From: Eledone cirrhosa
Lineage: Eukaryota
Assembly (NCBI GenBank): GCA_964016885.1
Contig: OZ024742.1
Location: 141,484,001-141,548,000, forward strand
Length of the DNA: 64,000 bases
Direction: 5' to 3'
The position numbers and the translations under genes are program-made. The notes beneath the pieces are model-generated. The model searched no databases, was not told the origin of the DNA, and saw nothing but the letters and a program-made list of their open reading frames with translations. This document shows, piece after piece, positions 1 through 64,000 of the stretch (within the stretch, counting starts at the first letter, position 1; each line of letters opens with the position of its first letter).

Positions 1-1640
1 GTAACAGTAATGGTGTCGACGGCCTCGGAAATCGGGGCGATCGGCACCTTACTGGAGGAGTACGAAAGGTTTACAGTGGCTAAGCTGAACCGGGACAAAT
101 CGATCGGTCTGCAACTCGGCACGTGGAGGGGCAGATCGATGCCCTGCGATGGCGTCGTCGGGCGCTGGACGGAGGGCCCGGTGAAGTTGCTCGGGGTCTG
201 GTTCGGACCAGACCTCCAGGTGGAGAAGAACTGGGGTGAGGTAACGAACAGGGTGTTTGCACTGACCCAGAAGTGGGCCGAGTGCACACTGTCCCTGAAA
301 GGTCGGGCGGAGGTGGCGAACACTTATATAGCGTCCGTCATCTACTACCGCCTGACCGCTGTGCCTTGCCCAAGGGAAATGCTCGCCAAAATGGAGCGCG
401 CACTCTTCCAATTCCTTTGGAAGAAGCGGGCTCCTATGGTGAGGAGATCCATCTGCTGTCAACACCCTTCGAAAGGAGGGCTGGGGATGCCGTGGCTAAT
501 GATACGTAAACACGCATTAAGGCTACGGCACCTTCAGGTATTCCTCTCCGGTCAACCGGTGTGGGCCTCGTTTGTGAGGCGAGCCTTTCCCCGACTCGTC
601 TCACTCACCGAGCTGCAATCCTGGGTCAAGCAAAGACCGAGAAAACTGGGCGCCTGGCACACCGAGTGTGCCCAGGCGCTCACGGCTCTCTGGCAGGCGG
701 ACCCGGCTGTCAGTGGAGAATCCACCTCGTCATTCTATAGAGGGCTGGTGGTTAGCAGGTGCGACGACGCCCTCGGAGAAGCCCTAGGCATGGAGGAAGA
801 CGAACTGGCCAACCTGTTCGGTAGGACATTCCGCCCGGGACCCATGGACAACTTCCAGAGGTCCCTGGCCTGGCAATGCTACAGAAGGGCTCTGCCCGTT
901 CCAGAAAGGCTCTACAGACACGGGCGCCCGGGTAGCGACCCCTCGAAAAAGATCTGTCCCAGATGCGTGTGCGACGAGGAAACCGTTGCACACGCATTGG
1001 TACACTGCTCGGGCATTGCCAATCTGTGGGGCTATGTCGAACAACTGCTGTCAAGGGTGGGACCGATCCGGTTGACCACCGAGTCTATTGTAACGATCAA
1101 GCCGCCTCCCCTCTTCAAAAACGAAGAAGAGGCGGTGTTTCTGTGCGTAATAGCCATGGCGAAAGAGGTTGTATGGTGGACGCGTCTGAAAGGACTGAGG
1201 TCAGACACCTTTCTCTCTGGCCAACAACTGGTCCGTTTCTTCCGATATCATTTCGGAAGAAGGATCAGGATGGAGAGAGAGGTGCTGCACCCCAGCCGTT
1301 TCTATGAAAGATGGGTGAAAGTGGCGAGAATGGCCCGTGTGAATGGGCCTTCACTCTACATCAGACTATAGGTGAGGAAGATGAAAGACCAAGGGAGCAC
1401 CCCTTCTCTGTGCTCCTGAGGAAAAGGGTTGCACACTTTTTTTCGGGGGTGTGTGCGACCCCCCAAGGCGCCTCCTCTCTATTGAGGACTTTGTTATAAA
1501 TTTCATTTTTTGTTATATTTTATTTTATTTTTATATATTGTTATTGCCTCCTCCTTATTGAGGACGCCTTGTTTTGTAAACTCCCCCCCATTGTACTTGT
1601 CCCACTTTTGATGCCCTGGTGGCAAATAAAAGAAACATAT
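1..1640 (+). mobile_element. Tx1/L1-clade non-LTR retrotransposon, copy 1 (3' part of ORF2 plus 3' UTR; 5' end lies outside the window)
   Basis: ORF 10..1371 has the RT C-terminal/thumb region (KLLGVWFG, GGLGMP) and a zinc finger (CPRC...EETVAHALVHC). The 3' UTR ends at AATAAAAGAAAC followed by a TATC/TATT-like run. Near-identical protein to copies 2 and 3. Confidence 0.93.
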
Positions 1641-1649
1641 CTATTTATT

Positions 1650-4600
1650 TACCCACATTTAAAACTAATAAAAATCCCAATGAACCTCTACCAAAAACTA
1701 AAAAAGGATTTTAAGGAGGACGTAGGACCACCCTCTGTCAAACCCATAAACCGCGTCCTACTAAAAAGCTTTCCCCCTCCCCTTCCCCTCCCCAACACAA
1801 CTCCAAACACCCCAACCCCACCACACACCGACGACCCCACACCACCACAAGACACCCCTTCACCCAACACCCCCGACCCCATGGAAGTCGTGCAACCCGA
1901 ACCCCGGGAAGCGGAAAGGTAGGTCTCTACACTCTCCTTTGGCTCTGCCGCCCACATGGATGTGTTAAGAGTAGGATGTTTGAATGCACGTGGCCTGGGC
2001 TCAACTTGGAAGCAAGCAAAGCTTCTAAATGACCTCAGGTCATGTGGTATAAATGTAATGGTTATCTGTGAGACTCGAATCAGCGTCATGCGGCAGCTGG
2101 CCCCCACCTTCGATGACTTTGAGGTGCATGCATCTCTCTGTCAACCTGGAGGTGGGGGTGGGGTTGTCGTGCTGTTGCAAAAACACCTGGGTCTTGCCGT
2201 ACAGGTTGTGCACTCGGACCCGGAGGGTCGTTTGTTGGTGCTAGACGTTGGCAGTAGTGAAAGTGCGGCCTTGAGACTGGTCGCCGTCTACTCCCCTTTC
2301 GGAGCTGAACGGCCCGACTTCTTCCAGCGTTTGGAGACTTTTCTGGGAACGTCGCGTTCCCTGCTTCTAGCGGGGGATTGGAATGACATCCTGGATGCAC
2401 GTTGGGACTATGCAGGAGCATGTCCTAATAGAGGGGGTGTAACAGCCTCAAGGGGTTACTCGACCGTTTTAACTTGGTCGATAGATATCGACTAGATTTT
2501 CCAACTGTGCCTACCTGGACTTGGAGAAACCACAGTGGTCAATCTAGATCGTACTTAGATAGATTCTTAGTTAGAAGTAAGGATAGGGACATATTAAGCT
2601 GTCCAGAAATGCGCACGGTTGGCTACACGGATCACAAATTAGTGACCTGCGTGGTCAATCTCGAGAAAACACATAGACAGGGTCCCGGTTACTGGAAACT
2701 TAATTTGTCTTTACCGGCAAAAGAGACTTACAGAAACCGGATTAGCAGATTAGTTAAGGAGAGGTTGACGGGTGCAATCGTCAACAACCGATGGTGGGCA
2801 TCTCTCAAAAGAGAGATTAGAACAGAATCAATAAGTTATAGCAAGATGTTAGCTGCCAATAGGAATAGAAACGAGAAAGAATTAACAGGTAAATTAGAAG
2901 AGGCAATCAAGAGCGAAGATGTGGCCAGAGTGCTGGCATCGAGGACGGCCTTGAACCAGTTTTTCGATGCAAAGCATGAAGGCTGCGTCATTCGAAGTAA
3001 AATACGTGCTCTAGGTAATGAGGGGGCCAAAGCCGTTGGATGGGCCCGCGTGACAGAAGCTAAAAGTGGAAATCGATCCACCATCCGGTCGTTGCAAGAC
3101 GAAGATGGACGGGTGATCCGGGAGCCTAAGCAGATGTGCGAGGCCTTTCAAAAGCACTTTGCCCGATTGTTCGGGGGAGGCGAGGGTCCGGGCCGGGGCG
3201 TGGATTTCGGTCCATACCTCGACGGCCTGCCGCGTCTCTCGAACAAAGAGGCAGAGTCCTGCGAGGGACCAATCTCGGCTGATGAGATCGGAGATGCGCT
3301 GAGCCAATGCAGCAGACGCAAATCTCCAGGTCTCGATGGTATACCTTACGAACTTTATTTAGCAATGCCGGTCTTCTTCTCCGAACTCCTCGAAGCGGTC
3401 TACTGCAATTGGCAGCAGAACGGGAGAATTCCTTGTTCTGTAGCCAAGGGCGTAGTCACGCTGGTGAGGAAGGACGAGAACAAGGGGGATAGTATAAATA
3501 ATTTTCGGCCCATAACCCTGCTAAACACAGAGTTAAAGATTTTGGCCAAGGTGTTAGCAAAGAGGTTGGCGCTTGTCGTGGGTGGCCTGGTGGGAGATGC
3601 GCAGACATGTGCTATCCCATCCAGGTCCATTCACGATAACCTCCACCTCATGCGATACATCATAGAGAGGGTTGGCAACAAACCCGGCTTCGGTGGGGCC
3701 CTGATCAACTTGGATCAGTCTAAGGCCTTCGATAGGGTCGACCATGGTTACCTGGATGCGGTGCTAGCGGCGGCTGGGTTCGGTCCTGTTTTCAGAGGCT
3801 GGATCACCGCCCTACATAGCAACCACATCTGTTCTAGGATCAAGGTGAACGGCTACCTTTCGAAGCCGTTCGAAATCACACGATCCATTCGACAGGGGTG
3901 CCCTCTCTCCTCCCTTCTGTACGTATTGACTCTCGAGCCTTTACTGAGGAAGTTGGAGTTGTTGCAGGGTATCCCCCTGGAACCAGGATTGAGCAAAGCG
4001 GTGTCGGCCTACGCCGATGACGTAACAGTAATGGTATCAACCGACTCGGAGATCGAGGCGATCGGTACCTTACTGGAGGAGTACGAAAGGTTGTCAGGAG
4101 CGAAACTGAACCGGGAAAAATCCATCGGGCTGCAACTCGGAACGTGGAGAGGCAAACCGATGCCTCCTGACGGTGTCGTCGGACACTGGACGGAGGGCCC
4201 GGTAAAGTTGCTTGGGGTCTGGTTTGGACCGGACCTCCAGGTGGAAAAGAACTGGAACGAGGTTACGAACAAGGTGTTTGCACTAACCCAGAAATGGGCC
4301 AAGTGTAAGCTGTCCCTAAAAGGCCGGGCGGAGGTGGCGAACATTTACATAGCGTCCGTCACTTACTACCGCCTGACTGTCGTGCCTTGCCCTAAGGAAA
4401 CACTCACCACCATGGAACGCATGCTCTTCCAATTTCTTTGGAAGAAGCGTCCTCCTATGGTGAGAAGATCCATCTGCTGCCAACAACCTTCGAAAGGAGG
4501 GCTGGGGATGCCGTGGTTGATGATGCGTAGGCACGCATTAAGGCTACGGCACCTACAGGTATTCCTCACTGGTCAACCGGTGTGGGCTCCGTTCGTGAAA

Positions 4601-5610
4601 CGAGCCTTTCCGAGACTCGTCTCACTCACCGAGCTACAGTCCTGGGTCAAGCAAAGATCCGGAAAACTGGGAGACTGGCACACTGAGTGTGCTCAGGCGC
4701 TCAGGGCTCTCTGGCAAGCGGGCCGGGCTATCGGTGGAGAATCCACCTCATCATTCTATAGAGGGCTGGTGGCTAGCAGGGGCGATGACACCCTTGGAGA
4801 GTCGCTGGACATGGAAGAAGACGAACTGGCCAGCCTGTTCGGTAGGACTTTCGGCCCAGGACCAATGGACAACTTCCAGAAGTCACTGGCTTGGCAGTGC
4901 TACCGAGGGGCTCTACCCGTTTGAGAGAGGCTCTACAGACACGGGCGCCCGGGCAGGGATCCCTCAAAAAAGATTTGCCCTAGATGCGTGCGTCACGAAG
5001 AAACCGTAGCGCATGCATTGGTGCAATGTCCTGGCGTGGCTGATCTGTGGGGCTACGCCGAACAACTGCTGTCGCGGGTGGCGCCGATTAAATTGACCGC
5101 CGAGTCCGTGATGACAATCAAACCGCCTCCCCTCTTCACAAAGGAAGCAAAGGCGGTTTTTTCTGTGCGTAATAGCCATGTTGAAAGAGGTTGTTTGGTG
5201 GACACGATTGAAAGGTCTGAGGTCAGGCAACTTCCTCTCTGGCCATAGTCTGGTCTACTTCTTCCGATATCACTTCGGAAGAAGGATAAGAATGGAGAGA
5301 GAGGTGCTTGGCCACAGGCAGTTTTATGAAAGGTGGGTGATAGTGGCGAGAATGGCTCGTGTAAATGGGCCTTCTCTGTATACCATCATGTAGGTAAAGA
5401 AGTAAAGGAGAGGGGAGCACCTTCTCCATGTGCTCCCCGGGCAAAGGATTGCACACTTTTTCGGGGGTGTGTGCAACCCCCATCACGTCCCCTCCCTTTT
5501 GAGGTTATTTTCGATTATTTTCATGTTACACCCTTTTTACTCGATTATATGTAAACTCCCCCTTTGTATTTGTCCCTTCTTTTTATGCCTTTATGGTAAA
5601 TAAAGAAATC
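1650..5610 (+). mobile_element. Tx1/L1-clade LINE, copy 2: ORF1 C-terminus, APE endonuclease, RT and zinc finger; disrupted
   Basis: Pro/Thr-rich ORF1 tail ending at 1922. APE motifs LNARGL, ICETR, GDWN, YLDR and TDHK from 1956 with a frameshift near 2440-2475. RT motifs PGLDG, FRPITLLN, DQSKAFD, QGCPLS and YADD in 2474..4924. Stop at 4922 and frameshift near 5160. Ends AATAAAGAAA+(TCTA)n. Confidence 0.95.
1956..5393 (+). pseudogene. Tx1-type ORF2 (APE-RT-zinc finger) with two frameshifts and a premature stop
   Basis: ORFs 1956..2495, 2474..4924, 4988..5248 and 5178..5393 tile a single ORF2. Confidence 0.9.
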
Positions 5611-13291: not shown

Positions 13292-13538
13292 CTTGACCGA
13301 CCTGTCTGTCGGGCGTCGATTCGGTCACAGCACGTCATGCTGTTTTAGCCATAAGATAACGCCATCCGACTGGGCGGGCAGGCCGGTACCTCTTCATCTC
13401 ATTTCTACAGGTGAGTAAACTGGAGCAACGTGAAATAAAGTGTCTTGCTCAAGGAAACAACACATCACCCGGTACAAGAATTGAACTCACAACCTTTCGA
13501 TTGCAAGCCCAATGCTCTAACCACTAAGCCATGCGCCT
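13290..13538 (-). mobile_element. tRNA-derived SINE, family B
   Basis: Reverse complement GGCGCATGGCTTAGTGGTTAGAGC...GAGTTCAATTC...CCTTGAGCAAGACACTT. Confidence 0.85.
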
Positions 13539-13575: not shown

Positions 13576-16500
13576 ATGAGACCAGAACGGATAGCTAGAA
13601 TACTACAACGTGTGCCTCTGGATGGAAATTCCTACATAAACATTTCTGTTGAGGGTAGGCGGCCTTCATGTGACCAGTGTTTAAGCAGTGGTCACATGAG
13701 GGCGTCCTGTCCTCAATTAACTGCATTAAAAAAAGGCATTACTGCCGACATCCAACACAACAACACAACCACCACCACCACCACAACAATAACAACAACA
13801 ACACACAAAAATAACAAAAACAAACCAAACTGCAAACACAGTCCCACCCAACCCCACTCCACCTAAAACCACTGCAAAATCCCATACAGACACAACAGCT
13901 CCCCAAGACATACCCCTCCCCAATCACACAGACGATACAACAGATGAGGCTATCTCGTCATCACCCAGTGAAGACGAGGGAGAACCCCATCGCTCGAAAA
14001 GAAAGAAAAGACACCACAAAAACAAAAAAAATCAGCAAACACTACCACAAATATACAACCACCAACACAAACAACAAAAACATCACAAACAAAACCCCCA
14101 CCTCCTGAAAACAAAATACCTACAACAAAACGAAAGCACACACAAGAACTACAGACAAAAACAAACACAACACAAGAAAATTACACTTACACATACATAA
14201 ACACTGAAAACAAAATACTAATGGAGACCATCACGAACAACCCTTCGGTTTTCACCGAAGGGAAAACTTTCGCCCACTCTATTAAAAATAACAAAAAACT
14301 GAACCTAAAACTGATTAGGGTCCCTATACAAACTTATAGGTCCCTAAAACAAACATTTGAAAATGATGTGGGGGAATTCCTGCGTGAAACCACTTAACCG
14401 CGTCTTTCTCAAATGTCTCCCCACCCAGACACCCCCACCCCAGATATCCCCTTCCCACCAGACACCCCCTCCCCGCCAACATCTCCGTCCCCACCCCGCC
14501 GGAAACCACCACCCACACAGACAACCCCTCCAACACCCCCATGGAAATCATGCAGCCTGGTTCCCAGGAGACGAAGGGTGAGTGATTTCTTTTTCTCCTC
14601 TTTTAACTTTTCAGAACCAACATGGCCAATATAAGAGTTGGATGTGTGAATGTACGCGGCCTGGGGATGCCCTGCAAACAGGGCAAACTCTTAAACGACC
14701 TCAGATCGCACAGTTTGGATGTAGTAGCCATTTCCGAGTCCAGGATCCACAGCGAGCGACATCTGGCCCCCATCTTCGACGACTTTGAGATCTACGCATC
14801 TGTCTGTCAGCCGGGAGGTGGGGCGGGGTTGCCGTTTTGCTGCGGAAACACCTGGACCTCGTAACACAGACGGTACATCTGGACCCGGATGGTCGACTGG
14901 TGGTCCTAGACGTTGACAGTAGTGAAAGTGGAGCCTTCAGGCTGGTGGCCGCATATGTCCCATCCGGGACGTCGCGGCCAGACTTTAGAAACTTTTCTGG
15001 GAACGTCCCGCTCCTTGCTTTTAGTGGGGGACTGGAATGGAATCCTAGATGCACGTTGGGACTATGTGGGAGCATGTCCCAATAGAGGGGTGTGTAACAG
15101 CCTCAAACAGTTAATCGGCCGATTTGACCTGGCCGATAGATATCGACTAGATTTTCCGATAGATATCGACTAGATAGGGTTCTAGTTAGAAATAAGGATA
15201 GGGACATGTTAAGCTGTTCACACATGTTCATGGTTGCCTATTCAGATCACAAACTAGTTACCTGTATGGTCAACCTTGATAGAACCCATAGACAAGGACC
15301 CGGCTACTGGAAGCTGAACTTGTCGTTACCGACAAGCAAAGCCTACAGTAGACGGATGAGCACTTTAGTTAGACAGCACTTAACAGGGGCCATTGTCAAC
15401 AACAGATGGTGGTACTCTCTCAAGAGGGCAGTTAGATTAGACTCGTTAGTTTTTAGTAAAGAATTAGCGTTAGATAGAAATAGGATCGAGAAGGAACCGG
15501 TAGATAAAGTAGAAGAGGCAATTAGTAGTGGCAACGTAGCCAGCGTGCTAGCAACGAGAGCGGCTTTGGACCAGTTCTTCGACGCAAAACACGAGGGCTG
15601 CGTTGTCAGAAGCAAAATACGTGCTCTGGGTAACGAGGGAGCCAAAGCTGTTAGCTGGGCCAGAGTAACGGAGGCGAAAAGTGGCAACAAGTCCACGATT
15701 CGGTCTTTGAAGGACCAAGACGGACGCGTGATACATAAGCTGAAGCAGATATGCGCGGCCTTTCAGCGGTACTTTGCTCAGCTGTTAGGGCAGGTCGGCG
15801 CTCTAGGAGGGGCTATGGATTTCGGTCCATACCTCGATGGCCTACCGCAATTCTCGGACAGCAAGGCGAAGTTCTGCGAAAAGCCGATTTCAGCCGCTGA
15901 GATAGGGGACACGCTGAGCCAATGCGGCAAACGCAAATCTCCAGGTCTCGACGGTCTACCCTACGAATTTTACGTAGCAATGCCGGACTTGTTCTCCGGT
16001 CTCCTGGAAGCGGTCTACTGCAACTGGCAGCAGAACGGGAGAATTCCCAGTTCTGTGACCAGGGGCTTAGTCACACTAGTCAGGAAGGACGAGAATAAGT
16101 GGGATGACATAGGCAACTTTCGGCCCATAACTCTGCTAAACACAGAGTTACAGATTTTAGCCAAGGTGTTGGCAAAGAGGCTGGCGCTTGTCGTCGAAAA
16201 CTTGGTGGGAGAAGCGCAGACATGCGCAATCCCGACCAGATCCATACACGACAACCTCCACCTCATGCGATACATCATAGAGATGGTAGGGTGTAAACCC
16301 GGCCTCGGTGGGGCCCTGATCATCTTGGATCAGTATAAGGCTTTCGATATGGTTGACCATCATTACCTGGATGCGGTGCTCGAGGCGGCAGGCTTCGGAC
16401 CCGTGTTGAGGGCCTGGATTGCTGCATTGCACAACAGCAACATCTGCTCAAGGGTCAAGGTGAACGGCTACCTCTCAGAGCCGTTCCATATCACGCGATC

Positions 16501-18238
16501 CATTCGACAGGGATGCCCTCTCTCCTCCCTTCTGTACTTACTGGCTCTCGAGCCATTACTGCGGAAGTTGGATCTATTGCAGGGCATCCTTCTGGAACCG
16601 GGACTGCGGAAAGCGGCGTCGGCCTACGCCGGGGACGTGACAGTAATGGTGTCGAGCACCTCGCAAATCGAGGAAGTTAGCACCTTACTGAAGGAATACG
16701 AAAGTTTCACAGGAGCGAAGCTGAACGGGGACAAGTCCATCGGTTTGCAACTCGGATCGTGGAGAGGCAAACCGATGCCTTCGGATGGCGTCGTCGGACG
16801 CTGGACGGAAGGACTGGTAAAGCTGCTCGGGGTCTGGTTTGGTCCGGACCTCCAGGTGGAGAAGAACTGGAACGAAGTGACGGCCAAGGTGTTTGCACTC
16901 ACCCAGAAGTGGGCCGAGTGCAAACTATACTTGAAAAGTCGAGCGGAGCTGGCGAACACTTTTATAGCGTCCGTCATCTACTACCGCTTGACCGTCGTGC
17001 CTTGTCCAGCCAAAACGCTCAGCAAAATGGAGTGCGCGCTTTTCCAATTCATTTGGAAGAAACGGGCTCCTTTGGTGAGAAGATCCATCTGCTGCCAATA
17101 CCCTTCAAACGGAGGGCTGGGGATGCCGTGGTTGACGATGCGCAAACACGCGCTCAGGCTTCGGCATCTCTACGTATTCCTCACCGGACAACCGGTGTGG
17201 GCCCCGTTCGTGAGGTGGGCCTTCCCACGACTCGTCTCGCTGACCGAGCTGCAGTCCTGGGTCAAGCAAAGACCGAGGAAAATGGGCAACTGGCACATCG
17301 AATGTGCTCAGGCGCTCACAGCCCTCTGGCAGGCAGACCAGGCGATCAGTGGAGACTCCACTTCGTCATTCTATAGAGGGTTGGTCCGCAGCAAGTCCGA
17401 CGACGCGCTCGGAGAAACTCTGGGCGTAGAGGAAGACGAACTGGCCAGTCTGTTCAGTAGAACCTTCCGCCCGGGACCGATGGAAATTTCCAAAAATCCC
17501 TGGCCTGGCAGTGCTACCGAGGAGCTCTACCAGTTCGAGACAAGCTCTATAGACACGGGCACCTGGACAGGGACACTTCGTAAAAGATCTCTTCGAGATG
17601 CGTGCGCGACGAGGAAACCGTCGCGTACGCATTTGTACACTGCCCGGGCGTTACCGACCTGTGGGGATATGTAGAACGACTATTGTCGCGGGTGGGACCA
17701 ATCCAGTTGACCACCGAGTCCATTGTCATAATCAAACCGCCACCCTCCTTCAAAAACGAAGGAGAGGCGGTTTTCCTTTGTGTGATAGCTATGGCGAAAG
17801 AGGTTGTATGGTGGACGAGGTTAAAAGGGCTGAGGTCAGACACCTTTCTCTCCGGCCAACAACTGATTCTTTTTTTCAAATACCACTTTGGAAGAAGAAT
17901 CAGGATGGAGAGAGAGGTGCTGTACCCCAGCAAGTTTTATGAAAGGTGGGTGAAAGTGGCGAGAATGGCCCGAGTGAATGGGCCTTCTCTCTATATCAGC
18001 CTGTAGGTTGAGGAAAAGGAGGAGGAGAGGAAAGGAGTACAAACTCTTCGTACTCCTGGAGATGAGGGTTGCACATTTTTTCGGGGGTATGTGTTACCCA
18101 TATGAACTGTCTCCCCCCATTGGGGAAAATCGATTAACTTTTAAATTACATTTGTGATAATATTTTACGTTTTTATTGTATGTAAACTTCCCCCTTTGTA
18201 TTTGTCCCCTTCTTTTGTGCCCCTGTGGCTAATAAAGA

Positions 18239-27899: not shown

Positions 27900-30800
27900 T
27901 CGTCTACAGCGTGATAGTGCCACGCTAAAATCACCGGGGGTGATCAAATCACTGGGGGGTGATGAAATCACCGGTGGTTATGTAACCATACATTCACCAA
28001 TCCTCGATATGAGCGTTTAAATGTCGAACCTAAACAGTTCGAATAACGGTGAAGTGGAGACTGGAATGACATGTGACAGACTCTCCCCCAGCAGGTGCTC
28101 CCTGGCCCAGCAGCAGGGATCTGGCTGTCATCCAAATACTGCTGGTGTTGGAGGAAGAAGAAGAAGGAAAGGGACCAGAAGCAACTGGAAGAAAGAATTG
28201 AATATAACTGTTATGCAATGTTACCTGAAGAGTAACCCCAAGGAAAAGGGCTATAGGAAACGGTTGCATAACATCTGGAACGAGATTGGTCTATTTAAAT
28301 TAGATGAACAAAAATTGGCCGGGTAGGCTCGGGTAATAAGAACTAATGGGTGGATAAGCGAGCTGGAACTGGAGGAACTCAGCAGAGATATTAGATTGGA
28401 AATGGAGAGTGGAGTATGCCAGGAAAACGAGCCAGTAAGAGATGAAGGTGGAGAAGAGGTTGAGAGAACGGAGGAAGTATCCGAAGCAGACAATGATCTG
28501 AATGCTGAAATAAATAATACCTGGAACAAAGATACGGCCATTGAGGAAATGAATGCTGACGGGCTAGGACAAGATTTTGTTGATATCCTAAACTTAGTGG
28601 TAGATGAAATGAACAATGATAGTGGGAAACCTATGAACCTAAGATTTGTAGACAGGAAAAAGTTAAAAGAAACAACAGCTAAGGTAAACAAAGTCATCCC
28701 ATACCTTGAGGCGAGGACCCTTCACCAGTGCAACAATATCCTCAAAGCAACAGCAAATGCGGTGAGGAAATTACTTGGCATAAAAGCGAGAGGAAACAAC
28801 AAACAAGAAAGATCAGAACCTTGGTGGAAGAAACGACTGAATGGTCAAATCAGGGAAATGAGAAATGACATTGGAAAGCTTGAGTCCTTACTGAATGGGA
28901 CACTACAAAACATAGACACTAAAAATAGACTGGAAATAAAGTACAAAACTAGGAGGAAAAAGTTAAATATTATCATAGAGGCACTGAAGCAACGCATTGT
29001 AGCAAAGAGCGCAAAGATTAGGCGATACGAGAGCAGAGTCAGTCAGTAGAGAGAGAACCGCATGTTTGACAACAACCAGAGGATGTTGTTTGGACAGCTT
29101 GAAGGGAAATAAAGAGGCAACGACTTGATCCCTGAGGCGGAACACACTAAGACATTCTGGAGAGGAATATGGGAGCAGGATGTTGAACATAATAATCAGG
29201 CAGTGTGGATTGAGACAGTACAAAAGGAGATTAGTGAACAGGCACACCAACAAACTGATTTGAGTATCACAGTTGAAACTCTTAAGGGGCAGGCCAGAAA
29301 ACTAACCAACTGGAAATCACCAGGCCCAGATGGTGTGCAGGGGTATTGGATTAAAAATATAACATCCCTCCACCCGAAACTGACAACCATGTTCAATGAC
29401 TGCTTGATGTCAGGTGAGGTACCAGAGTGGTTGACAAAAGGTACCACAGTTCTGGTAATGAAAGACCGAATCAAGGGTAATGATGTTACCAACTATAGAC
29501 CTATCATTGTGTCTGAGGAAATCTACCATCCCCTCTACATAAACAACTTGTTACCGGACGAACAGAAAGGATGCCGAAAGAAGTCCCGTGGTACAAAGGA
29601 CCAGTTACTTATTGATAAGATGGTAATGAGGAATTGCAGGAGGAGACACACTGGTCTTGCCATGGGATGGATAGACTACAAAAAGGCATTCGACATGGTA
29701 CCTCATTCTTGGATAACCAAAAGCCTAGAGATCTTCAAGGTGGCAGATAACATCAGACAGTTGTTGAGCAAAAGTATGAAGTCCTGGGAGGCGTGAGGAT
29801 CAAGAGAGGGATCTTCCAGGAAGATAGTTTGTCCCCTCTGTTGTTTGTCCTTGCCCTGATCCCTCTGACCATTATACTGCGAAAAGTGAGAGCAGGATAC
29901 AAGTTGGGAAAGGGAGAGCTTATCATCAATCACCTCCTCTTCATGGACGATCTTAAGCTCTTCGGGAAGAGTGAGAAGGAGTTGGATGTGCTTGTTGACA
30001 CTGTCCGTATTTTTAGCAATGATATATGTATGCAATTTGGTGTTAGTAAGTGTGGAGTCCTTGTGATGAAGAGGGGTAAATTGAGCAGAAGCAACGGAAT
30101 CCAGGTACCAACAGGTGAGATGATAAAGGAAATTGATACTGAAGAAGGATACAAATATTTAGGCGTACTGGAGGCTGATGACATCAAGAACAAAAAAATG
30201 AAGGAATTGATAAGATCTGAATACATTCGGAGAATAAGGAGCGTATTAAAGTCACATCTGAACAGTAGGAATGCCATAAGTGCAGTAAATTCCCGAGCTG
30301 TGTCTATTATTAGGTACAGTGCGGGAATTCTGAGAATGGAATGTTGCTGAACAAAAAGAAATGGATAGGAAGACTAGGAAGCTATTGACTATCTACAACA
30401 TGTTCCACAAAAGGAGTGATGTCGATAGACTCTACTTAAGGAGATCTGAAGGTGGAAGAGGTCTTATCAGCATAGAGGACTCTGTTCAGATGGAGAAAAA
30501 CAACCTACACAAATATGTGACTGATAGTAGGGAGCCAATGCTCACAATTGTACTGAAGTAGAGGACAATAGACCAGGGGATGTCCAAGGAGGAAATAACA
30601 ACAAGGAGAAAGAGCAACCTTCATGAAAAATCCCTTCATAGTGCCTTCTTTGAGAAAACTGAAGTTAGAGATCCACAGACATGGAACTGGTTGAAAAGAT
30701 GAGACCTTAAAAAGGCTACAGAAGGAATGCTAATGGCTGCGCAAGAGCAGGCCCTGAAAACGAAGTGGCTGAAACACCATATTTACAAGGAGGAGGCTAT

Positions 30801-31478
30801 CCCACTGTGTAGGATCTGTGGAGAGAGAGAGGAGACTGTGGCTCACATTGTATCCGAGTGTAAACACCTATCCCAGACTCACTATAAAGGCTAGAGACAT
30901 GATGTGATGGGCAGAGTGAACCACTGGCACCTATGCAAAGTAAACAAATTACCACATTCTGAGAAGTGGTATGAGCATAAGCCAGAGTCGGTGATGGAAA
31001 ACAATCAGGTGAAGGTGCTGTGGGATTTTAGGATACAGACGGACAAGAAACTGGAACACAATAGACCTGACCTGGTGGTTTTGGACAAGGGAAAAATATC
31101 GTGCCTGATTGTGGATGTAGCCTACCCATTTGACACGAGAGTGCAAGAGAAGGAGAGGGAGAAAATTAACCGATACTAGGACTTAAAGTGGGAGGTAAAA
31201 AGGATTTGGAACTGCCATGAGGTCAAAGTGGTCCCGATTGTCATAGGCGCACTAGGTACTATCTCAAAGAGTTTCCAGGGATGGTTAAAGAAAATTGGTC
31301 CCGCCCCGCTTTTTGGAACACTTCAAAAGGTATGGTTGCTGGCAACAGCAAGAACCCTCCGATACGTCCTGAATATCTGAGGCTGCAGGTAGCGGCTTGA
31401 TATTCATTTCAACAAACTTTCCAGTTAAATAACATCAATGACTGAGACTCAAAGAACAATACTACTAATAATAATAAT
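27900..31478 (+). mobile_element. R4/Dong-like RLE non-LTR retrotransposon, near full length, pseudogenised, ending in (TAA)n
   Basis: Single-ORF remnant 28021..31380: PWWKKRL, SPGPDG, NYRPI, DYKKAFDMVPH, GIFQEDSLSP, LFMDD, YKYLG, DVDRLYL..GGRG, CRICGEREETVAHIVSEC, RHD and RLE motifs RPDLVV...DVAYPFD...EK..RY. Several in-frame stops. Tail CTAATAATAATAA. Confidence 0.92.
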
Positions 31479-50376: not shown

Positions 50377-51330
50377 GGAGTAAAAAAAAAAAAGAAGAGG
50401 AAGAAGAAAAAGAAGAAGAGCAACAACAACAAAAATAGCAACGAGAAAACATCAAAACATTATGTTTTCAATAACAATAATATCTCCAAGCAAAGCAGTA
50501 GTTACAACAACATTTGGGGCAGCAATAACAACCTCAACAAAATACAAAAAAAGAAACATAGTATCATCATCATCATCATCATCATTATTATTATTATAAT
50601 CATCATTGTCAAAAACAAGCCATATAGTGTTCAAGTTTTAAAAGCGGATTTCACTTCTCGCGTGTCTGACACCGACACATGTATAGACATGTATGGAAAG
50701 TTAAAACTTGCATACATGTAAAATAGGCAAACAAATATGTACTATTGCGCTAAACCCGTACTTTTCGGTGTATGAGAAGCATATTCCCTTTTTCTTTATA
50801 TTTTTCTCATAGTTCCTTACATATTACTACTCTCATTTTCCTACACTCACCCATCAGATTGAAAACATTTTTATTTAAATAGCCAAACATTCGATGGATC
50901 TTAATGGTGTTGGTAAAATTTTGATTAGATAACCAGAGTTCTAATTTGTTCTTATTTTATTGCTATGGTAAGAATATTTGATTCCCTAATCTTCCAATTA
51001 GATGTATTTTCTCTGTTCTTGACTAAACTACCTCAGTGCATAACAGTTTCTCTCAAGCTGGCTGAGATGTAATTTATTTGAAAATATATATCAACAGTTT
51101 GTCCGTATGTCAGTCTTTTCTCTTTTTCTCTCACTCTGAGAAACTCGGAGTAGCGAATCGGTAAATCCCTATATATATATATATAACCTAATGTTAAACA
51201 AGGTTCATTGATTATTCAATGAATACAGTTTTACAATAGATTAAAAGCACTCAACAAAGACATTTTTGGGAGTTATTAATATTATTCAAAATATTAATAA
51301 ATGGATACATTCACATAATCAAAATATATG

Positions 51331-51392
51331 TTTTATTATATATATTTCGGAGGTACTGTGGTGTTTTTTCAGTACGTCCTCATCAGATAAAA
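51331..51392 (-). ncRNA. Type I hammerhead ribozyme
   Basis: Minus strand TTTTAT-CTGATGA-GGACGTACTG(11 nt loop)CAGTACCTCC-GAAA-TATATA-TA-ATAAAA: intact core, 9 of 10 pairs in helix II, palindromic helix III. Confidence 0.85.
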
Positions 51393-51451
51393 TACATAAA
51401 TTGATGCATGACATACCTCAACTGTGCTGATGGTTCAATTTCAGTCTTGGC

Positions 51452-51520
<69 letters not shown>

Positions 51521-51770
51521 TTATTATTTCTTTCTTTCTTTTTTTCTTTCTTTTTTTTTCTCTCTCCCTCACAATATCACCTTCTTCCAACAGTTTAATT
51601 TAAATAAACCGTTATCTTTTCAACTTTTCGGACACTCATTTGCATACTCACTCATAATTTTCTATCACCCTCAATAAATGTAATATCTCCACTATCCAGG
51701 AAGCTCCAACCGTTAAGGTTGTCTTTTTTCAGGGTATGTCAATATTTATTTATAAAACTAATCTGTATTG

Positions 51771-51836
51771 TATTTTATCTGATGAAAGCGCACCATAATT
51801 TGCCTTGGTAGCCCTTGAAATATGTATAATAAAATA
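51771..51836 (+). ncRNA. Type I hammerhead ribozyme
   Basis: TATTTTAT-CTGATGA-AAGCGCACCA(loop)TGGTAGCCCTT-GAAA-TATGTA-TA-ATAAAATA; 8 bp helix I. Confidence 0.8.
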
Positions 51837-52992
51837 AATATGGTTTTATAAATATAGTTTCCATTTGTTAATATATTGTATATTTATATATATATATATA
51901 AAAAATAAATTTTAACTTCGAACATAGCTGTATTCATGTTTGACAGATTTTTATTTATAAATTCCATTATCATTACAATTTTGATTTAAAAAAAAATAAA
52001 ATATAGATATTTTGAAATAATTATGAGAAAAAAAGTATATCCTCATATTTATTGTTTACTAATCTGAATAAGAACAGCAGTAACCCGGACAACACCTGGT
52101 CATTCAGCTAGTATATATATTTACACAGCACATGCACAACAACTACAGCATTGAGAGACTCTCATCCTGGCTGCTCGATCGAAGACTTCAAGAAACAAGT
52201 TATACACTTCTTGATTAAAGGAGGGCACAGTAAACTGTAATTTATGTGGACTACAATCAATCAGTCAATGCTGGTTTGCCCTTGATCATAGCTGTGTTCA
52301 AATCTATTATTTTCATGCAGGTGGTGCCTCTGAATATTTTTTTAATTTACACCAACCACCAACCAATGTATATTGTTGTATATTTACTTAGTCATTCTCC
52401 CATCACTACGTGGGCATATAAGGTGGAGCATATACTTCGCTGATGAGGACATAGTAAAACCAAAACTTGCTTTGAGTTATTTCCCGCAGTTAAACAAATA
52501 ATAAAATGACTCAAGTCAATAATTTAAACTGTTCTTCCTCACTGCCTCATTACGTTTAACTATATTTGATGCTTCCAGCACTAAATATATTAAAATTATC
52601 CCATTTATAATATTTACTTTTATTTACTATTCTGATTGTAAATATTGTCTTACAATTTTCTGTTTGAACGATTACATGAATACTCTAGTTCCTGGTAGTT
52701 ATTTCATATTGAAGGAGAGCGTTAATTAAGATCTCATGTTTGTGTAATCTAAATCCTGTATAGTAATGACACTCTTTGCTGTCTTTTGTGCTTTCAGGTC
52801 ACTTAATTTCTGAGTTGCTACCTTGAAATTAGTTAAAATACCGGAATAGCAATTATGTTTACATTAATTACCTTATTCATATAAATTGAGTTCATTTTCA
52901 AGCAATTCTCTAAAACGCATTCAGTTATGATTGTTTTACTTCAGTTATGATTGTTGATTATTTCTCTCTATATATACATACACACACGCGTG

Positions 52993-53389: not shown

Positions 53390-53392
<3 letters not shown>

Positions 53393-54000
53393 ATCAAAAG
53401 ATGGTTAAAAGAGTTCCATGTATTTTATTATGCGCATTTCAAAAACAAATATCATCATGCGATGATATTTGCGTTTTCGTCAGATAAAATAGGGAGACAT
53501 GATATGAAGGTTAAAAAACACTTGTGAATAGTGCAGTTTTAAATCAACCATTTTCTGCTAAAGTTGTTACATTAGTTGTAACAACTTTAGCAGAAAAAGC
53601 TTGGACGCTCAGGGATAGCGATCAAAAGTTTACCCTAAAATGGGAAAAATTAGCTAAAACCCAAAGCTTTTCCAGGAGCCAAAATTTCTGCAAATTGTGT
53701 AATCTTGAGATTTATTACATAATCACACACAAGAAGAAACTGCTGAATAACAGAATTGAACGAACATTATTCTGCCGTCACAGAACTAAAACCCTTTTTT
53801 CCCACTACAAGCCGAATATTACATAAAAGAGGGACATCCCCAACTATATAAACCTTAATCTAGTTAGAAAAATATAAAAACAATCTCTTCTCAACATATA
53901 TTAATAACCTTAAATTACCATACTAATAATGGAAAGATATGCTGATGAGAATAGGTACAAATATGCGATAATGAATGTGTCTAAAAACGTCCATAAGTAT
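53390..54000 (+). mobile_element. Penelope-like element 3' fragment with a degenerate terminal HHR
   Basis: LKWEKLAK...NFCKLCNLEIYYII...LLNNRIERTLFCRHRTK resembles the PLE endonuclease C-terminus. It is followed by TATG-CTGATGA...AAAAC-GT-C-CATA (53938..53995), in which GAAA is mutated. Confidence 0.7.
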
Positions 54001-60740: not shown

Positions 60741-61189
60741 ATAGATTGTACTTGTAACTATTATATGTATGTATGTATCCGGGAGAGATGACCCCTTAGC
60801 CTTTGTCAAGGCAGAATTCTAGGAGAAGGAAAACTCTGATGTAACACCTGCAACTATGATGGTATCCAATGATGTTGACTTGTTCTTCTTTTTGGTAAAT
60901 ATCATCTTGGTTAAGAGAGTGGGACTGGTTTTGTGCAGTGCCTTTGCTCACTATAAAAGCTTCACGGCACAGGCATTGCTTTATATCTGGAGATCTCTCT
61001 GCACTTGTCATCACATGGTACCATGGGCCCAGCACTATGTGTCAATAATTGTCACAAGTGTAGTGTTTGTACCAGAGTTTTCAAGTCGCTGGCTGGACTA
61101 AGAAGTCACACTCGTTCAGAGCATCGATGGGGGTTCTCCTACATGGATATAAAGTAGTGGCCATACTCGAAAACGAGTTGGCAGCCACC

Positions 61190-64000
61190 ATGTATGTATG
61201 TATGTATGTATGTATGTATGTATGTATGTATGTATGTATGTATGTATGTATGTATGTATGTTCTTCTGGTTTTATAATTTCACAAAGTTTTACCAATAGA
61301 AAGAGAGTCGGTTTCTCACATAGACACAAGACTCTCTCATTGGATTTTACACAACATCAACTAGGTAGATATGTATGTATGCATGCATGTGTAGATATGG
61401 ATGTTATTGTATGTGTGGATGTGTATGTTTTGAGTTGTATGTGTGCATGTGTATATGCTTTGTATCTGTACATATGTATATGCAGTTATTAGATGCAACA
61501 TTTTTGGAATGTTTTACATATTTTTACTGTTCCATTAATGGATTGTACTTGTAGTTTCCTAACTAGTTGTGTTCTTTCTGTTCCTGTGAAGCCTAGCTTC
61601 TCAAGATTTGTATTGAGGCAGTTACTAACATATCCCAGTGCCCCAATAATCACAGGCATAAATCTGAAGGTGTAATCAGAGTGGAGTATCTGCAGATTTC
61701 TCATGAGTTCTGCATAAATATTCTCCTTTTCACTAATCTTTGATATTATATTGGCGTCTGCTGGGCAGCTAATTTCCACTACTGTGCATGTTTTCTTCTC
61801 CCTGTCCCATATCATAATATCTGGTCTGTTATGCCTGCATTTTATTGGGGTTCTTACTGGAACATTTCAGCAGTACTCTTTCATATTATGTACATGGATG
61901 TCTTCCACATTGTTGTAGCTTTTAATGTGTTTATTATCGGGGCTATCTTTTTTACGAACTTCATTGTACAGTGTTTTGGCCACTACATCATGCCTCATAG
62001 GTAGATAGTACCGCGATGACATCTTTGGACAGCTGCTGATGACATGGGTGATAACCTCGATGTTAGTTCTGCAGAGTCTGCACTTGTTATCACATCTAGG
62101 TATTTTGCCTGCATCCCTATCTCTTTTGTGAATCAGGTATTTCGTGCTAATCTCCTGTTCCTGGATTGCAAAAGCTTATCCTTCAAAGTGGGAGCCAATA
62201 TAGCGGTTGTTGGTCGAAGATAGACTACTTTCCTTATCTATATTACTCTCACTCTGGAGCTTCCTGGCAACATACCCATGCATGATTTTTTGCTGATAGG
62301 CATGCAGTTTTTCATCCATGGATTCACTGCGATACTGCTGAGCGACATCCCTGGGTGTGAGTTTTTGATTATCACACAGGGAATATCTCGCAAGGAGTTC
62401 CTTCCCAACTCTCATGATCTTATCTGTTTCATGCAGATAGACTTGCTCGAGAAGCGGGCTCCTACGCTTCGAGGTTCGTAGATGTTGTCGGAGAAATATG
62501 ATGCGACATTCAAATGTTGTCTGGACTGATGTTAGTCCTCTGCCTCCCTGCTTACGTTTCAAGTAAAGGCGGTCTATGTCACTGTTGATGTGGAAGTTTC
62601 CGGTGTTGTTCAATATTTTTCGAGTTCCAACATCAACTGCTCGGATTTCGTCTATCGTCCAATTGAGTATTCCAAACGTTTGATGTTAGGACAGGCACAG
62701 CAAACACATTGTGAGCCACTGTTTTGTTTTGCGCAGAGAGTTCCGATGACCAGATCTTTCTTAATCGGGTGTAGTATTCCCTGGTTATGCGTTCTTTATT
62801 ACAGATACCATTATAGCATATGTTCTCATCTATCCCCAGGTATCTGTAGCAGTCCTCACCAGATATCGGTGAAACAGTTAGACCATTGATGACAATGTTG
62901 CTAGATTGGGTTGTTGTTTTTCCCCGCTTTACAGTCATGTATGAGCATTTATCTTAGCCAAACTCCATTCCTATATCCTTTGAGAACGTTGTAACCAGGT
63001 CAAGATTTTTCTTCATCCCATCCATGTTCTTGGCATAGAGTTTCAACTCGTCCACAAAGAAGTTATGGGTTAGGTTCGTATTTCTGTCCTCCTGTGAGCC
63101 AATGATGTATCTCTCACATTTCTTGAGCAGAAAGGACAAGGGGTTTAATGACAAGATGAACAATATCACTGAGAGACTGTCCCCCTGAAATATACACCTG
63201 CAATATTTTATTTTATCAGTGAAAATAGAGTCCCCCTCTCTGTTTTTAACCTTAGGATAGTAGCCCAAGAAGAAGACAGCCTCTCTATGGCTCTGACAAT
63301 AATGTCTGGGACTTTAGCAAGTTGGAAGGCTTCTATCATCCAAGCGTGGGGAACAGAATCGAAAGCTTTCCTGTAGTCCAGCCAGACTGTAGTCATATTC
63401 CTCCTAAGTTGTCGCACCTCCGACATCGCAGTTTTGTTGATTAGAAGTTGTTCAGAACATCCCCAAACCCTTTTCTTTCCAGCTGCTTGTTCATATGTGA
63501 TGATGTTATTATTCTCACAGTGATCTTGGAGGAATAGGTTCAGGCAGGCTGTATACATCTTATACATCAGGTTCTGGCATGCAATTGGTCGGTATTTTTT
63601 TGCCAAGTGGGTGTCTTTGTTCTTGGGGACCAGTAACGTTTGTGCTAATGTCAACCATTCTGGTATAAGTGTATATCCCTTAAGAACATGTTGGTAGAGG
63701 TCAGTAAGATACCTCCGATAGAATATTAGTTTTTTGTACCAGTAGCCAACAATCATGTCTCTTCCTGGTGTTTTCTGATCTTGGAGTTTTCCTATCACAG
63801 TCTCAAGGGTACCCTCACTTATTTCGTATGTTTTTTGTTGTAGTGTAGGGGCAATAGTTCTTTCGGATTTCTCTTAGCCGCACTGCATCTTGGTTGAAAT
63901 TCTTCTTTTCATCCCATATTTTGCTCCAAAAGTAATCTATATCTGGGATGGGGCCTCAGTGACACTTATTATTTTGCCCTTTATATCTCTATAGGCTGAT
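61190..64000 (-). mobile_element. R4/Dong-like RLE non-LTR retrotransposon (continues beyond the window), degenerate, with (CATA)n tail
   Basis: TPGRD, YRPIAC, LDYRKAFDSVPH, IFQGDSLS, FFVDE, YRYLG, DIDRLYLKRKQGGRG, CRLC...THVISSC, RHDVVAK and RPDI...VEISCP...KENIY; 3' UTR ends at (TATG)n 61191..61260. Confidence 0.92.

What the first reader, a model, noticed from the sequence alone, without database searches (positions are those of the whole stretch)
51290..51875. Divergent pair of related HHRs showing helix II replacement
Seen: two head-to-head HHRs flank a (TA)n tract. They share helix I (TATTTTAT/ATAAAA), core, helix III and upstream GGTATGTCA, but have different helix II sequences that both pair (GGACGTACTG/CAGTACCTCC versus AAGCGCACCA/TGGTAGCCCTT). 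Structure kept despite sequence turnover is within-window evidence of selection on ribozyme folding. Helix III is itself a TA repeat, like the apparent target.
Basis: partly seen in the sequence, partly recalled or inferred. Interest (0 to 1): 0.7.

Follow-up and report, generated by a model that had tools for sequence, protein, structure and literature searches.

The report
Two Penelope ends sharing a microsatellite
The two back-to-back hammerhead-ribozyme motifs are real, but they are the cut-off ends of two related families of a known jumping gene with tens of thousands of such motifs in this genome, and they likely landed separately in the same TA repeat.

Summary
Two type I hammerhead motifs lie head to head (- strand 51329-51394, + strand 51771-51836). 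They are pseudo-LTR fragments of two Penelope-like element families, B and A. Elsewhere in the genome each family flanks an RT + GIY-YIG ORF, and family A shows the Hydra-clade marks. One shared pattern has 30,934 matches, against 0 for the reversed control.

Helix II is not replaced. It is one homologous helix in which 6 of 9 pairs changed on both sides, with a fixed pyrimidine mismatch (0 of 206 paired). This points to selection on the transposon lineages, not on this locus. Helix III varies as a palindrome (a third motif in the window has ATGCGCAT), so its TA look is probably incidental.

Head-to-head pairs are routine: 32 of 35 are same-family fold-backs, and 31 of those 32 lack a TA spacer. 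This mixed pair has a 63-nt TA spacer, which favours two insertions. Cleavage was not tested. The scan has already reported such elements on other DNA of this genome.

The parts
51170..51185 (.). (TA)8 tract at the 3' end of element B (target remnant, inferred)
51186..51452 (-). Family B pseudo-LTR fragment. It starts 2 nt after the family's 5'-end hotspot and carries the hammerhead and the full ~95-nt tail (long 3' end).
   Evidence: 94-98% identical to 39 other copies (40 scored of 2894 candidates); the family flanks an RT-EN ORF in L238 and L239; end class
51329..51394 (-). Type I hammerhead motif B: helix II GGA(C)GTACTG/CAGTAC(C)TCC, palindromic helix III ATATATAT, predicted cut after AUA at 51337
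51409..51417 (-). Conserved GGTATGTCA about 38 nt after the 5' hotspot; a splice-donor-like or promoter element (undecided)
51452..51514 (.). 63-nt (TA)n spacer between the 5' ends of B and A
51515..51872 (+). Family A fragment: about 175 nt of 3' UTR plus pseudo-LTR with the hammerhead and the short 3' end. Its 5' break falls in the family's own ATATAT stretch; both ends are blurred by TA.
   Evidence: 94-97% identical to 39 other places (40 scored of 2381 candidates); the family flanks an RT-EN ORF in L132, L100 and L088; boundaries
51690..51698 (+). CACTATCC 5'-end hotspot, a likely internal transcription start; B families have the matching CACTGCC with a TATA box about 30 nt upstream
51733..51741 (+). 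Conserved GGTATGTCA in element A
51771..51836 (+). Type I hammerhead motif A: helix II AAG(C)GC-ACCA/TGGT(A)GC(C)CTT, helix III ATATGTAT, predicted cut after AUA at 51828
51873..51900 (.). Imperfect TA tract at the 3' end of element A

Best explanation
The two motifs are the hammerhead-bearing end pieces (pseudo-LTRs) of two related Penelope-like retrotransposon families, likely of the Hydra clade, which likely inserted in two separate events into one (TA)n tract. Shown: each piece matches a high-copy family whose full elements read pLTR - RT/GIY-YIG ORF - long 3' UTR - pLTR. Copies end in TA runs at two fixed points, about 100 and about 200 nt after the core, and short copies pile up at one 5' position. 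Inferred: the element protein nicks (TA)n and starts reverse transcription at one of two internal sites of an uncut RNA, since the copies span the cleavage site. B is then a nearly complete copy of the RNA's 5' end, back to the pLTR start site. A is a 5'-truncated copy whose break fell at an internal ATATAT. Helix II diverged between the families by compensatory substitution, under selection on the transposing RNA. The hammerheads are predicted to be weak as monomers, needing a palindromic helix III dimer or protein help. These two copies are likely inert debris.
For: Copy numbers: 30,934 matches for the shared pattern, 1,058 for the exact B pattern and 2,563 for the exact A pattern, with controls 0. 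ORFs linked to A (L132, L134, L100) and to B (L238: pLTR 772, ORF pieces 1031-3349, pLTR 4562; 34-67% identity to the A protein by segment). Of 35 head-to-head pairs within 1 kb, 32 are same-family, and 31 of those 32 have no TA run over 10 nt between the cores, while the window pair has 54-63 nt. The one other B/A head-to-head pair (L090) has an inverted A tail piece of its own at A's 5' side, the mark of a separate insertion. Mixed-family neighbours show no excess of head-to-head layout: 3 head-to-head, 6 convergent, 6 tandem. None of the 29 closest B copies has an A element joined as here. Solo copies with TA at the 5' start are common (68 A and 119 B matches). Forming helix III as a monomer costs about 2.9 kcal/mol. 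In vitro precedent for internal RT starts, uncut template and protein-assisted cleavage: PMC11167929.
Against: The window pair has one long and one short 3' end, as do 24 of 32 single-event fold-backs; chance would give this roughly 45% of the time. Both copies are equally diverged from their relatives (about 96%), so age does not separate them. No empty or single-insertion allele was seen. There is only one clean mixed head-to-head comparator. TA between convergent or tandem neighbours is expected anyway and does not test a 5'-5' junction. The Hydra call rests on motifs, not on a tree. Expression and cleavage were not tested.
Confidence: 0.82

Rival explanations
1. One insertion event used two different RNAs. 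A dimeric Penelope RNP primed from both ends of a break in (TA)n, one end on a family B RNA (long start) and the other on a family A RNA (short start), and the two cDNAs joined through TA.
For: The long+short pattern matches the fold-backs (24 of 32). The two copies have similar divergence. In one fold-back (L099) the arms look like different A sub-subfamilies with no TA between them. PAc extends both strands and is predicted to be a dimer (PMC11167929).
Against: The 63-nt TA spacer is absent in 31 of 32 fold-backs. Mixed head-to-head pairs are not in excess. L090 is a separate insertion.
Confidence: 0.1
2. The B-(TA)n-A unit is a composite mobile element or a host-selected bidirectional ribozyme cassette.
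For: Both cores are intact and face away from each other.
Against: No repeat of the unit was found among the 29 closest B loci or the 24 closest A loci. The copies are no better conserved than other family members. No host exon was recognised near the pair among the 81 ORFs scanned; the only non-RT-type Pfam hits were a C2H2 finger at 60957-61154 and a weak DUF6647.
Confidence: 0.03
3. The pieces belong to free non-LTR retrozyme (non-autonomous, circular RNA) families rather than being PLE end fragments.
For: Most copies are short and non-coding, and retrozymes are proposed to derive from pLTRs (bioRxiv 10.64898/2026.07.22.740005).
Against: The same sequences run directly into ORFs. Copies end at two PLE-type tail points. 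No head-to-tail array of short units was seen; the one same-family tandem pair within 1 kb has a 40-nt TA run between its members.
Confidence: 0.05

Closest known systems
Hydra-clade C-terminal EN+ Penelope-like elements (Craig et al. 2021, PMC8557442), including Hydra-1_Obim
   Same: Single RT-EN ORF, DKT, CxCX5C linker, CxxC before E, CxH, no CCHH, canonical HHR in the pLTR, (TA)n insertion, inverted 5'-truncated copies, tail at one end.
   Different: pLTR-to-pLTR spacing is 3.7-4.2 kb with a 1.1-1.8 kb 3' UTR (published elements are generally under 3 kb). RWR stands in place of RWK. The tail is about 95 nt (30-40 bp published). Helix II is long with a fixed pyrimidine mismatch. The listed Hydra-1_Obim hammerhead has a different sequence, so these are other families.
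Metazoan PLE hammerheads (Cervera and de la Pena 2014, PMC4209133)
   Same: [quoted passage not shown]
   Different: [quoted passage not shown] Pair 10.1-11.1 is A-U in 131, G-U in 43 and G-C in 26 of 206, not the conserved G-C.
PAc Poseidon element of Anolis (Frangieh et al. 2024, PMC11167929)
   Same: Two internal RT start points leaving a tail, AT-rich target, and copies that span the uncut HHR.
   Different: A different clade. Here the ORF starts 238-265 nt after the core, not inside the HHR.
Non-LTR retrozymes
   Same: Short non-coding type I HHR repeats related to pLTRs.
   Different: Not tandem here, and the sequences are directly continuous with autonomous ORFs.

Membership tests
Type I hammerhead ribozyme | Core CUGANGA ... 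GAAA ... UH with three helices | tested here: met
   helix III is only 2-3 bp as a monomer
Type I hammerhead ribozyme | Self-cleavage at the UH site | not testable with these tools
   no bench assay
Type I hammerhead ribozyme | Match to a curated Rfam hammerhead model | tested here: not met
   no hit at gathering score; the permissive E-value mode was not run
EN+ Penelope-like element | pLTRs flanking a single RT + C-terminal GIY-YIG ORF | tested here: met
   L100, L137, L139, L144 (A-type) and L238 (B); YRDD, FLDV and VVY..YVG motifs. Pfam gave no RT or EN hit; one homologue is named 'predicted GIY-YIG superfamily endonuclease'.
EN+ Penelope-like element | Inverted 5'-truncated copies and a tail at one end | tested here: met
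   32 same-family fold-backs, 24 of them long+short; two end classes
Hydra clade | DKT in place of DKG | tested here: met
   SDKT in L132, L133 and L134
Hydra clade | CxCX5C linker; CxxC and CxH around E/N; no CCHH | tested here: met
   CNCRNKSNC, CDLCIEE and CRH in L134 and L133; L132 has a deletion in the linker. Absence of CCHH was read by eye. For family B these motifs were seen only in fragments.
Hydra clade | RWK motif | tested here: inconclusive
   RWR in these families; RWK in 3 of 5 aligned outside homologues
Hydra clade | Insertion into (TA)n | tested here: met
   a TA run follows the core in 28 of 30 A and 29 of 30 B loci
Hydra clade | Generally short (<3 kb) | tested here: not met
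   3.7-4.2 kb between pLTRs; the paper gives this as a general trait, and it lowers confidence in strict membership
Hydra clade | Phylogenetic placement with named Hydra RTs | not tested
   no named Hydra protein was available as a tool-held sequence
Non-LTR retrozyme | Head-to-tail tandem units, each with an HHR | tested here: not met

The most novel reading that the evidence does not exclude
The pair is a fossil of one Penelope insertion that used two RNA templates from different families at the two ends of a single break. That would show that PLE inverted ends arise from two-template, double-ended priming by a dimer rather than from fold-back on one RNA.
Probability: 0.1. Interest if true: 0.5.

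Novelty: new member of a known kind. Interest (0 to 1): 0.2.

Why it matters
The pair itself is ordinary transposon debris. The families have modest value as a natural mutational series: the shared pattern has about 31,000 matches across many subfamilies. They show helix II covariation around an invariant pyrimidine mismatch and palindrome-preserving changes in helix III, which bears on the open question of what PLE hammerheads do. Mixed-family junctions could also test whether inverted PLE ends come from one RNA or two.

Tried and rejected
RNA evidence: no RNA holder listed. DNA contigs of X1-X4 did not span the stretch and showed no joint skipping either whole element, so they say nothing on empty alleles.

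Intron idea (GGTATGTCA as a 5' splice donor, putting the hammerhead inside an intron): 0 of 30 loci with a changed donor base were spliced copies (30 of 59 matches fetched). The best acceptor candidate (ATTTAG|CTCC) is shared by A and B but lost in some A subfamilies. Left undecided, since PLE copies are known to keep introns.

Cap-derived G at the 5' hotspot: all 5 G cases among 30 loci can be explained by the inverted arm. At TA junctions G beats A by 7:3 of 68 and 16:5 of the 100 listed of 119 (hand counts), which is suggestive only.

Age test: uninformative, both copies about 96%. A genome-wide count of mixed pairs could not be run, so pairs were counted in fetched loci only. Pfam did not recognise the element ORFs. 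The look-up of earlier findings near this place was empty.

The script cut-off of 0.9 identity classed six same-family fold-backs as 'different'. I reclassified them by the helix II 5' strand. With the script's own cut-offs the table is 2 of 27 against 12 of 21 (Fisher p 2.7e-4). L073's partner is a mis-parsed hammerhead of another type and was kept among the 3 mixed head-to-head pairs.

Full report
Observation. B lies on the - strand at 51329-51394 and A on the + strand at 51771-51836, with a 63-nt TA tract at 51452-51514 between their 5' sides. My scan found a third motif of the same type at 53421-53491 (-). Rfam at gathering score found none of them. The shared pattern has 30,934 matches in the 3.0-Gb genome against 0 for the reversed control; exact B and A patterns have 1,058 and 2,563.

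What they are. The A piece (about 51515-51872) matches 39 other places at 94-97% and the B piece (51186-51452) 39 other places at 94-98%; in each search 40 candidates were scored of over 2,000. In other loci family A runs from the hammerhead into an ATG about 240 nt downstream and a 743-aa frame (L132). It recurs after a long 3' UTR (L100, L088). Family B does the same (L238: pLTR, ORF pieces, pLTR). The A-type proteins carry YRDD, SDKT, CNCRNKSNC, VVY..YVG, CDLCIEE and CRH, which fits the Hydra clade as described in PMC8557442 section 11. They differ in RWR for RWK and in a length of 3.7-4.2 kb. No tree was built, so clade membership rests on motifs. The best named homologue is an Argonauta hypothetical protein at 39% identity.

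Helix II. Read base by base, the B and A helices align. Pairs 1, 2, 3, 6, 9 and 10 change on both sides; pairs 5, 7 and 8 are the same; position 4 is C.C in both; A has one bulged base. This is compensatory substitution, not replacement, and intermediate subfamilies exist. Among 206 distinct motifs from the window and the loci fetched up to then, helix II positions 1-3, 5 and 6 pair in 191-201, and position 4 in 0 (CC 189, CU 12, UC 5). That set was filtered on helix I, so helix I counts are circular, and many loci were fetched on A or B helix II patterns. On 17 hand-picked subfamily representatives, 8 of 9 helix II pairs change on both sides. The covariation score of 0.419 exceeded 500 of 500 shuffles and all slid controls (0.07-0.19). 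Pairs 8 and 10 are unpaired in 5 of 17 rows, at least partly because of the unaligned bulge, and the shuffles ignore relatedness. PMC4209133 already notes such covariation in PLE hammerhead families. The selection is on the transposing RNA; the window copies are no better kept than others.

Helix III. The strand is self-complementary in nearly all copies: ATATATAT 97, ATATGTAT 92 and ATGCGCAT 3 of 206. A GC-rich palindrome in a family that also ends in TA shows that the constraint is palindromy, as in the published dimer model, and not likeness to the target. Closing helix III in a monomer costs about 2.9 kcal/mol, and the palindrome duplex gives only -2.2 (A) or -3.2 (B), so weak activity is predicted. 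The two motifs are on opposite strands and cannot form a dimer within one transcript.

Why head to head. Among 48 neighbouring pairs within 1 kb in the loci fetched up to, 35 are head to head. Of these, 32 are same-family, and 31 of the 32 have no TA run over 10 nt between the cores. These are the inverted 5'-truncated ends known for PLEs; opposite-strand pairs 100-700 bp apart are in PMC4209133. The window pair is mixed and has a long TA spacer. The other B/A pair, L090, shows an inverted A tail piece at A's own 5' side. None of the 29 closest B copies repeats the window's junction. Against this reading, the window pair has one long and one short end, like 24 of 32 fold-backs, and the two copies look equally old. 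I put two separate insertions at about 0.82 and one two-template event at about 0.1.

How the pieces form (inferred). Copies end at two points: about 100 nt after the core (19 of 30 A, 17 of 30 B) or about 200 nt (8 of 30 A, 11 of 30 B). This parallels the two internal RT starts of PAc (PMC11167929). Short copies often begin at or just after CACTATCC/CACTGCC. In B this site has TATAAA about 30 nt upstream: 17 of 30 loci were classed as continuing upstream, and 9 of 30 stop exactly at the A, by my reading. It is likely the pLTR start site. Window B begins 2 nt after it. The shared GGTATGTCA lies about 40 nt after this site and looks like a splice donor, but no spliced copy was found (0 of 30). 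It may instead be a promoter element; the donor and promoter consensus motifs are recalled and come from no call.

Literature seen. PMC8557442: passages, section 11 and supplement passages. PMC4209133: parts 1-2 of 4. PMC11167929: parts 1-2 of 4. bioRxiv 10.64898/2026.07.22.740005: part 1 of 5; its supplements are closed and could list related families. Four searches listed no title on these particular families or on the fixed mismatch; the other hits were seen as listings only. Earlier unreviewed notes of this scan describe the same kind of element in this genome; the family, mismatch and clade results above were obtained before I read them.

Verdict. A real feature, made of new families of a known kind of element in a known arrangement. 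Interest 0.2.

Noticed in passing
window 53391-53500 (-) and 53581-53805 (+): A third hammerhead family (helix III ATGCGCAT, long helix II) ends in (TA)37. It sits inverted against a 5'-truncated endonuclease fragment (tblastn E 7e-5), a typical inverted PLE end.
   Followed up: partly
all families; window 51376/51352 and 51789/51813: Invariant pyrimidine-pyrimidine mismatch at helix II position 4 (0 of 206 paired); function unknown.
   Followed up: partly
L119, L120, L121, L123, L238, L239, between hammerhead and ATG: A long-range helix encloses the long RT start point and differs in sequence between families (A TCAGTTATAA/TTATAACTGA; B AATCTATTGTA/TACAATAGATT). A GAG(T/C)GCTT motif occurs twice in both.
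   Followed up: partly
window 51733-51741 (+) and 51409-51417 (-): Donor-like G|GTAYRT about 40 nt after the likely start site in most subfamilies seen; if used, the hammerhead would lie inside a 5' UTR intron.
   Followed up: partly
genome-wide TA junctions: Excess of G over A just before the 5' hotspot (7:3 and 16:5), possibly a copied cap.
   Followed up: partly
L099:1166-1294: A fold-back whose two arms resemble different A sub-subfamilies, with no TA between them; a possible two-template event.
   Followed up: no
window 52440-52470 (+) and 57403 (+): Two decayed hammerhead-like cores of other types (CTGATGAGG...CC then AAAAC; CTGATGAGTCCG) without an intact GAAA.
   Followed up: no
window 1923-4924, 15140-17674, 29113-30891, 61870-63873: LINE-type RT and endonuclease frames, two of them long and open (830 and 844 aa).
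   Followed up: no
window 60957-61154 (+): A single C2H2 zinc finger hit (Pfam E 1.7e-5); a possible host exon.
   Followed up: no
window 13474-13531 (-): A partial tRNA-like match (Rfam 32.6 bits) next to a TA run, likely a SINE head.
   Followed up: no
window 51980-52100: Another high-copy repeat just downstream of the pair (very high contig depth).
   Followed up: no
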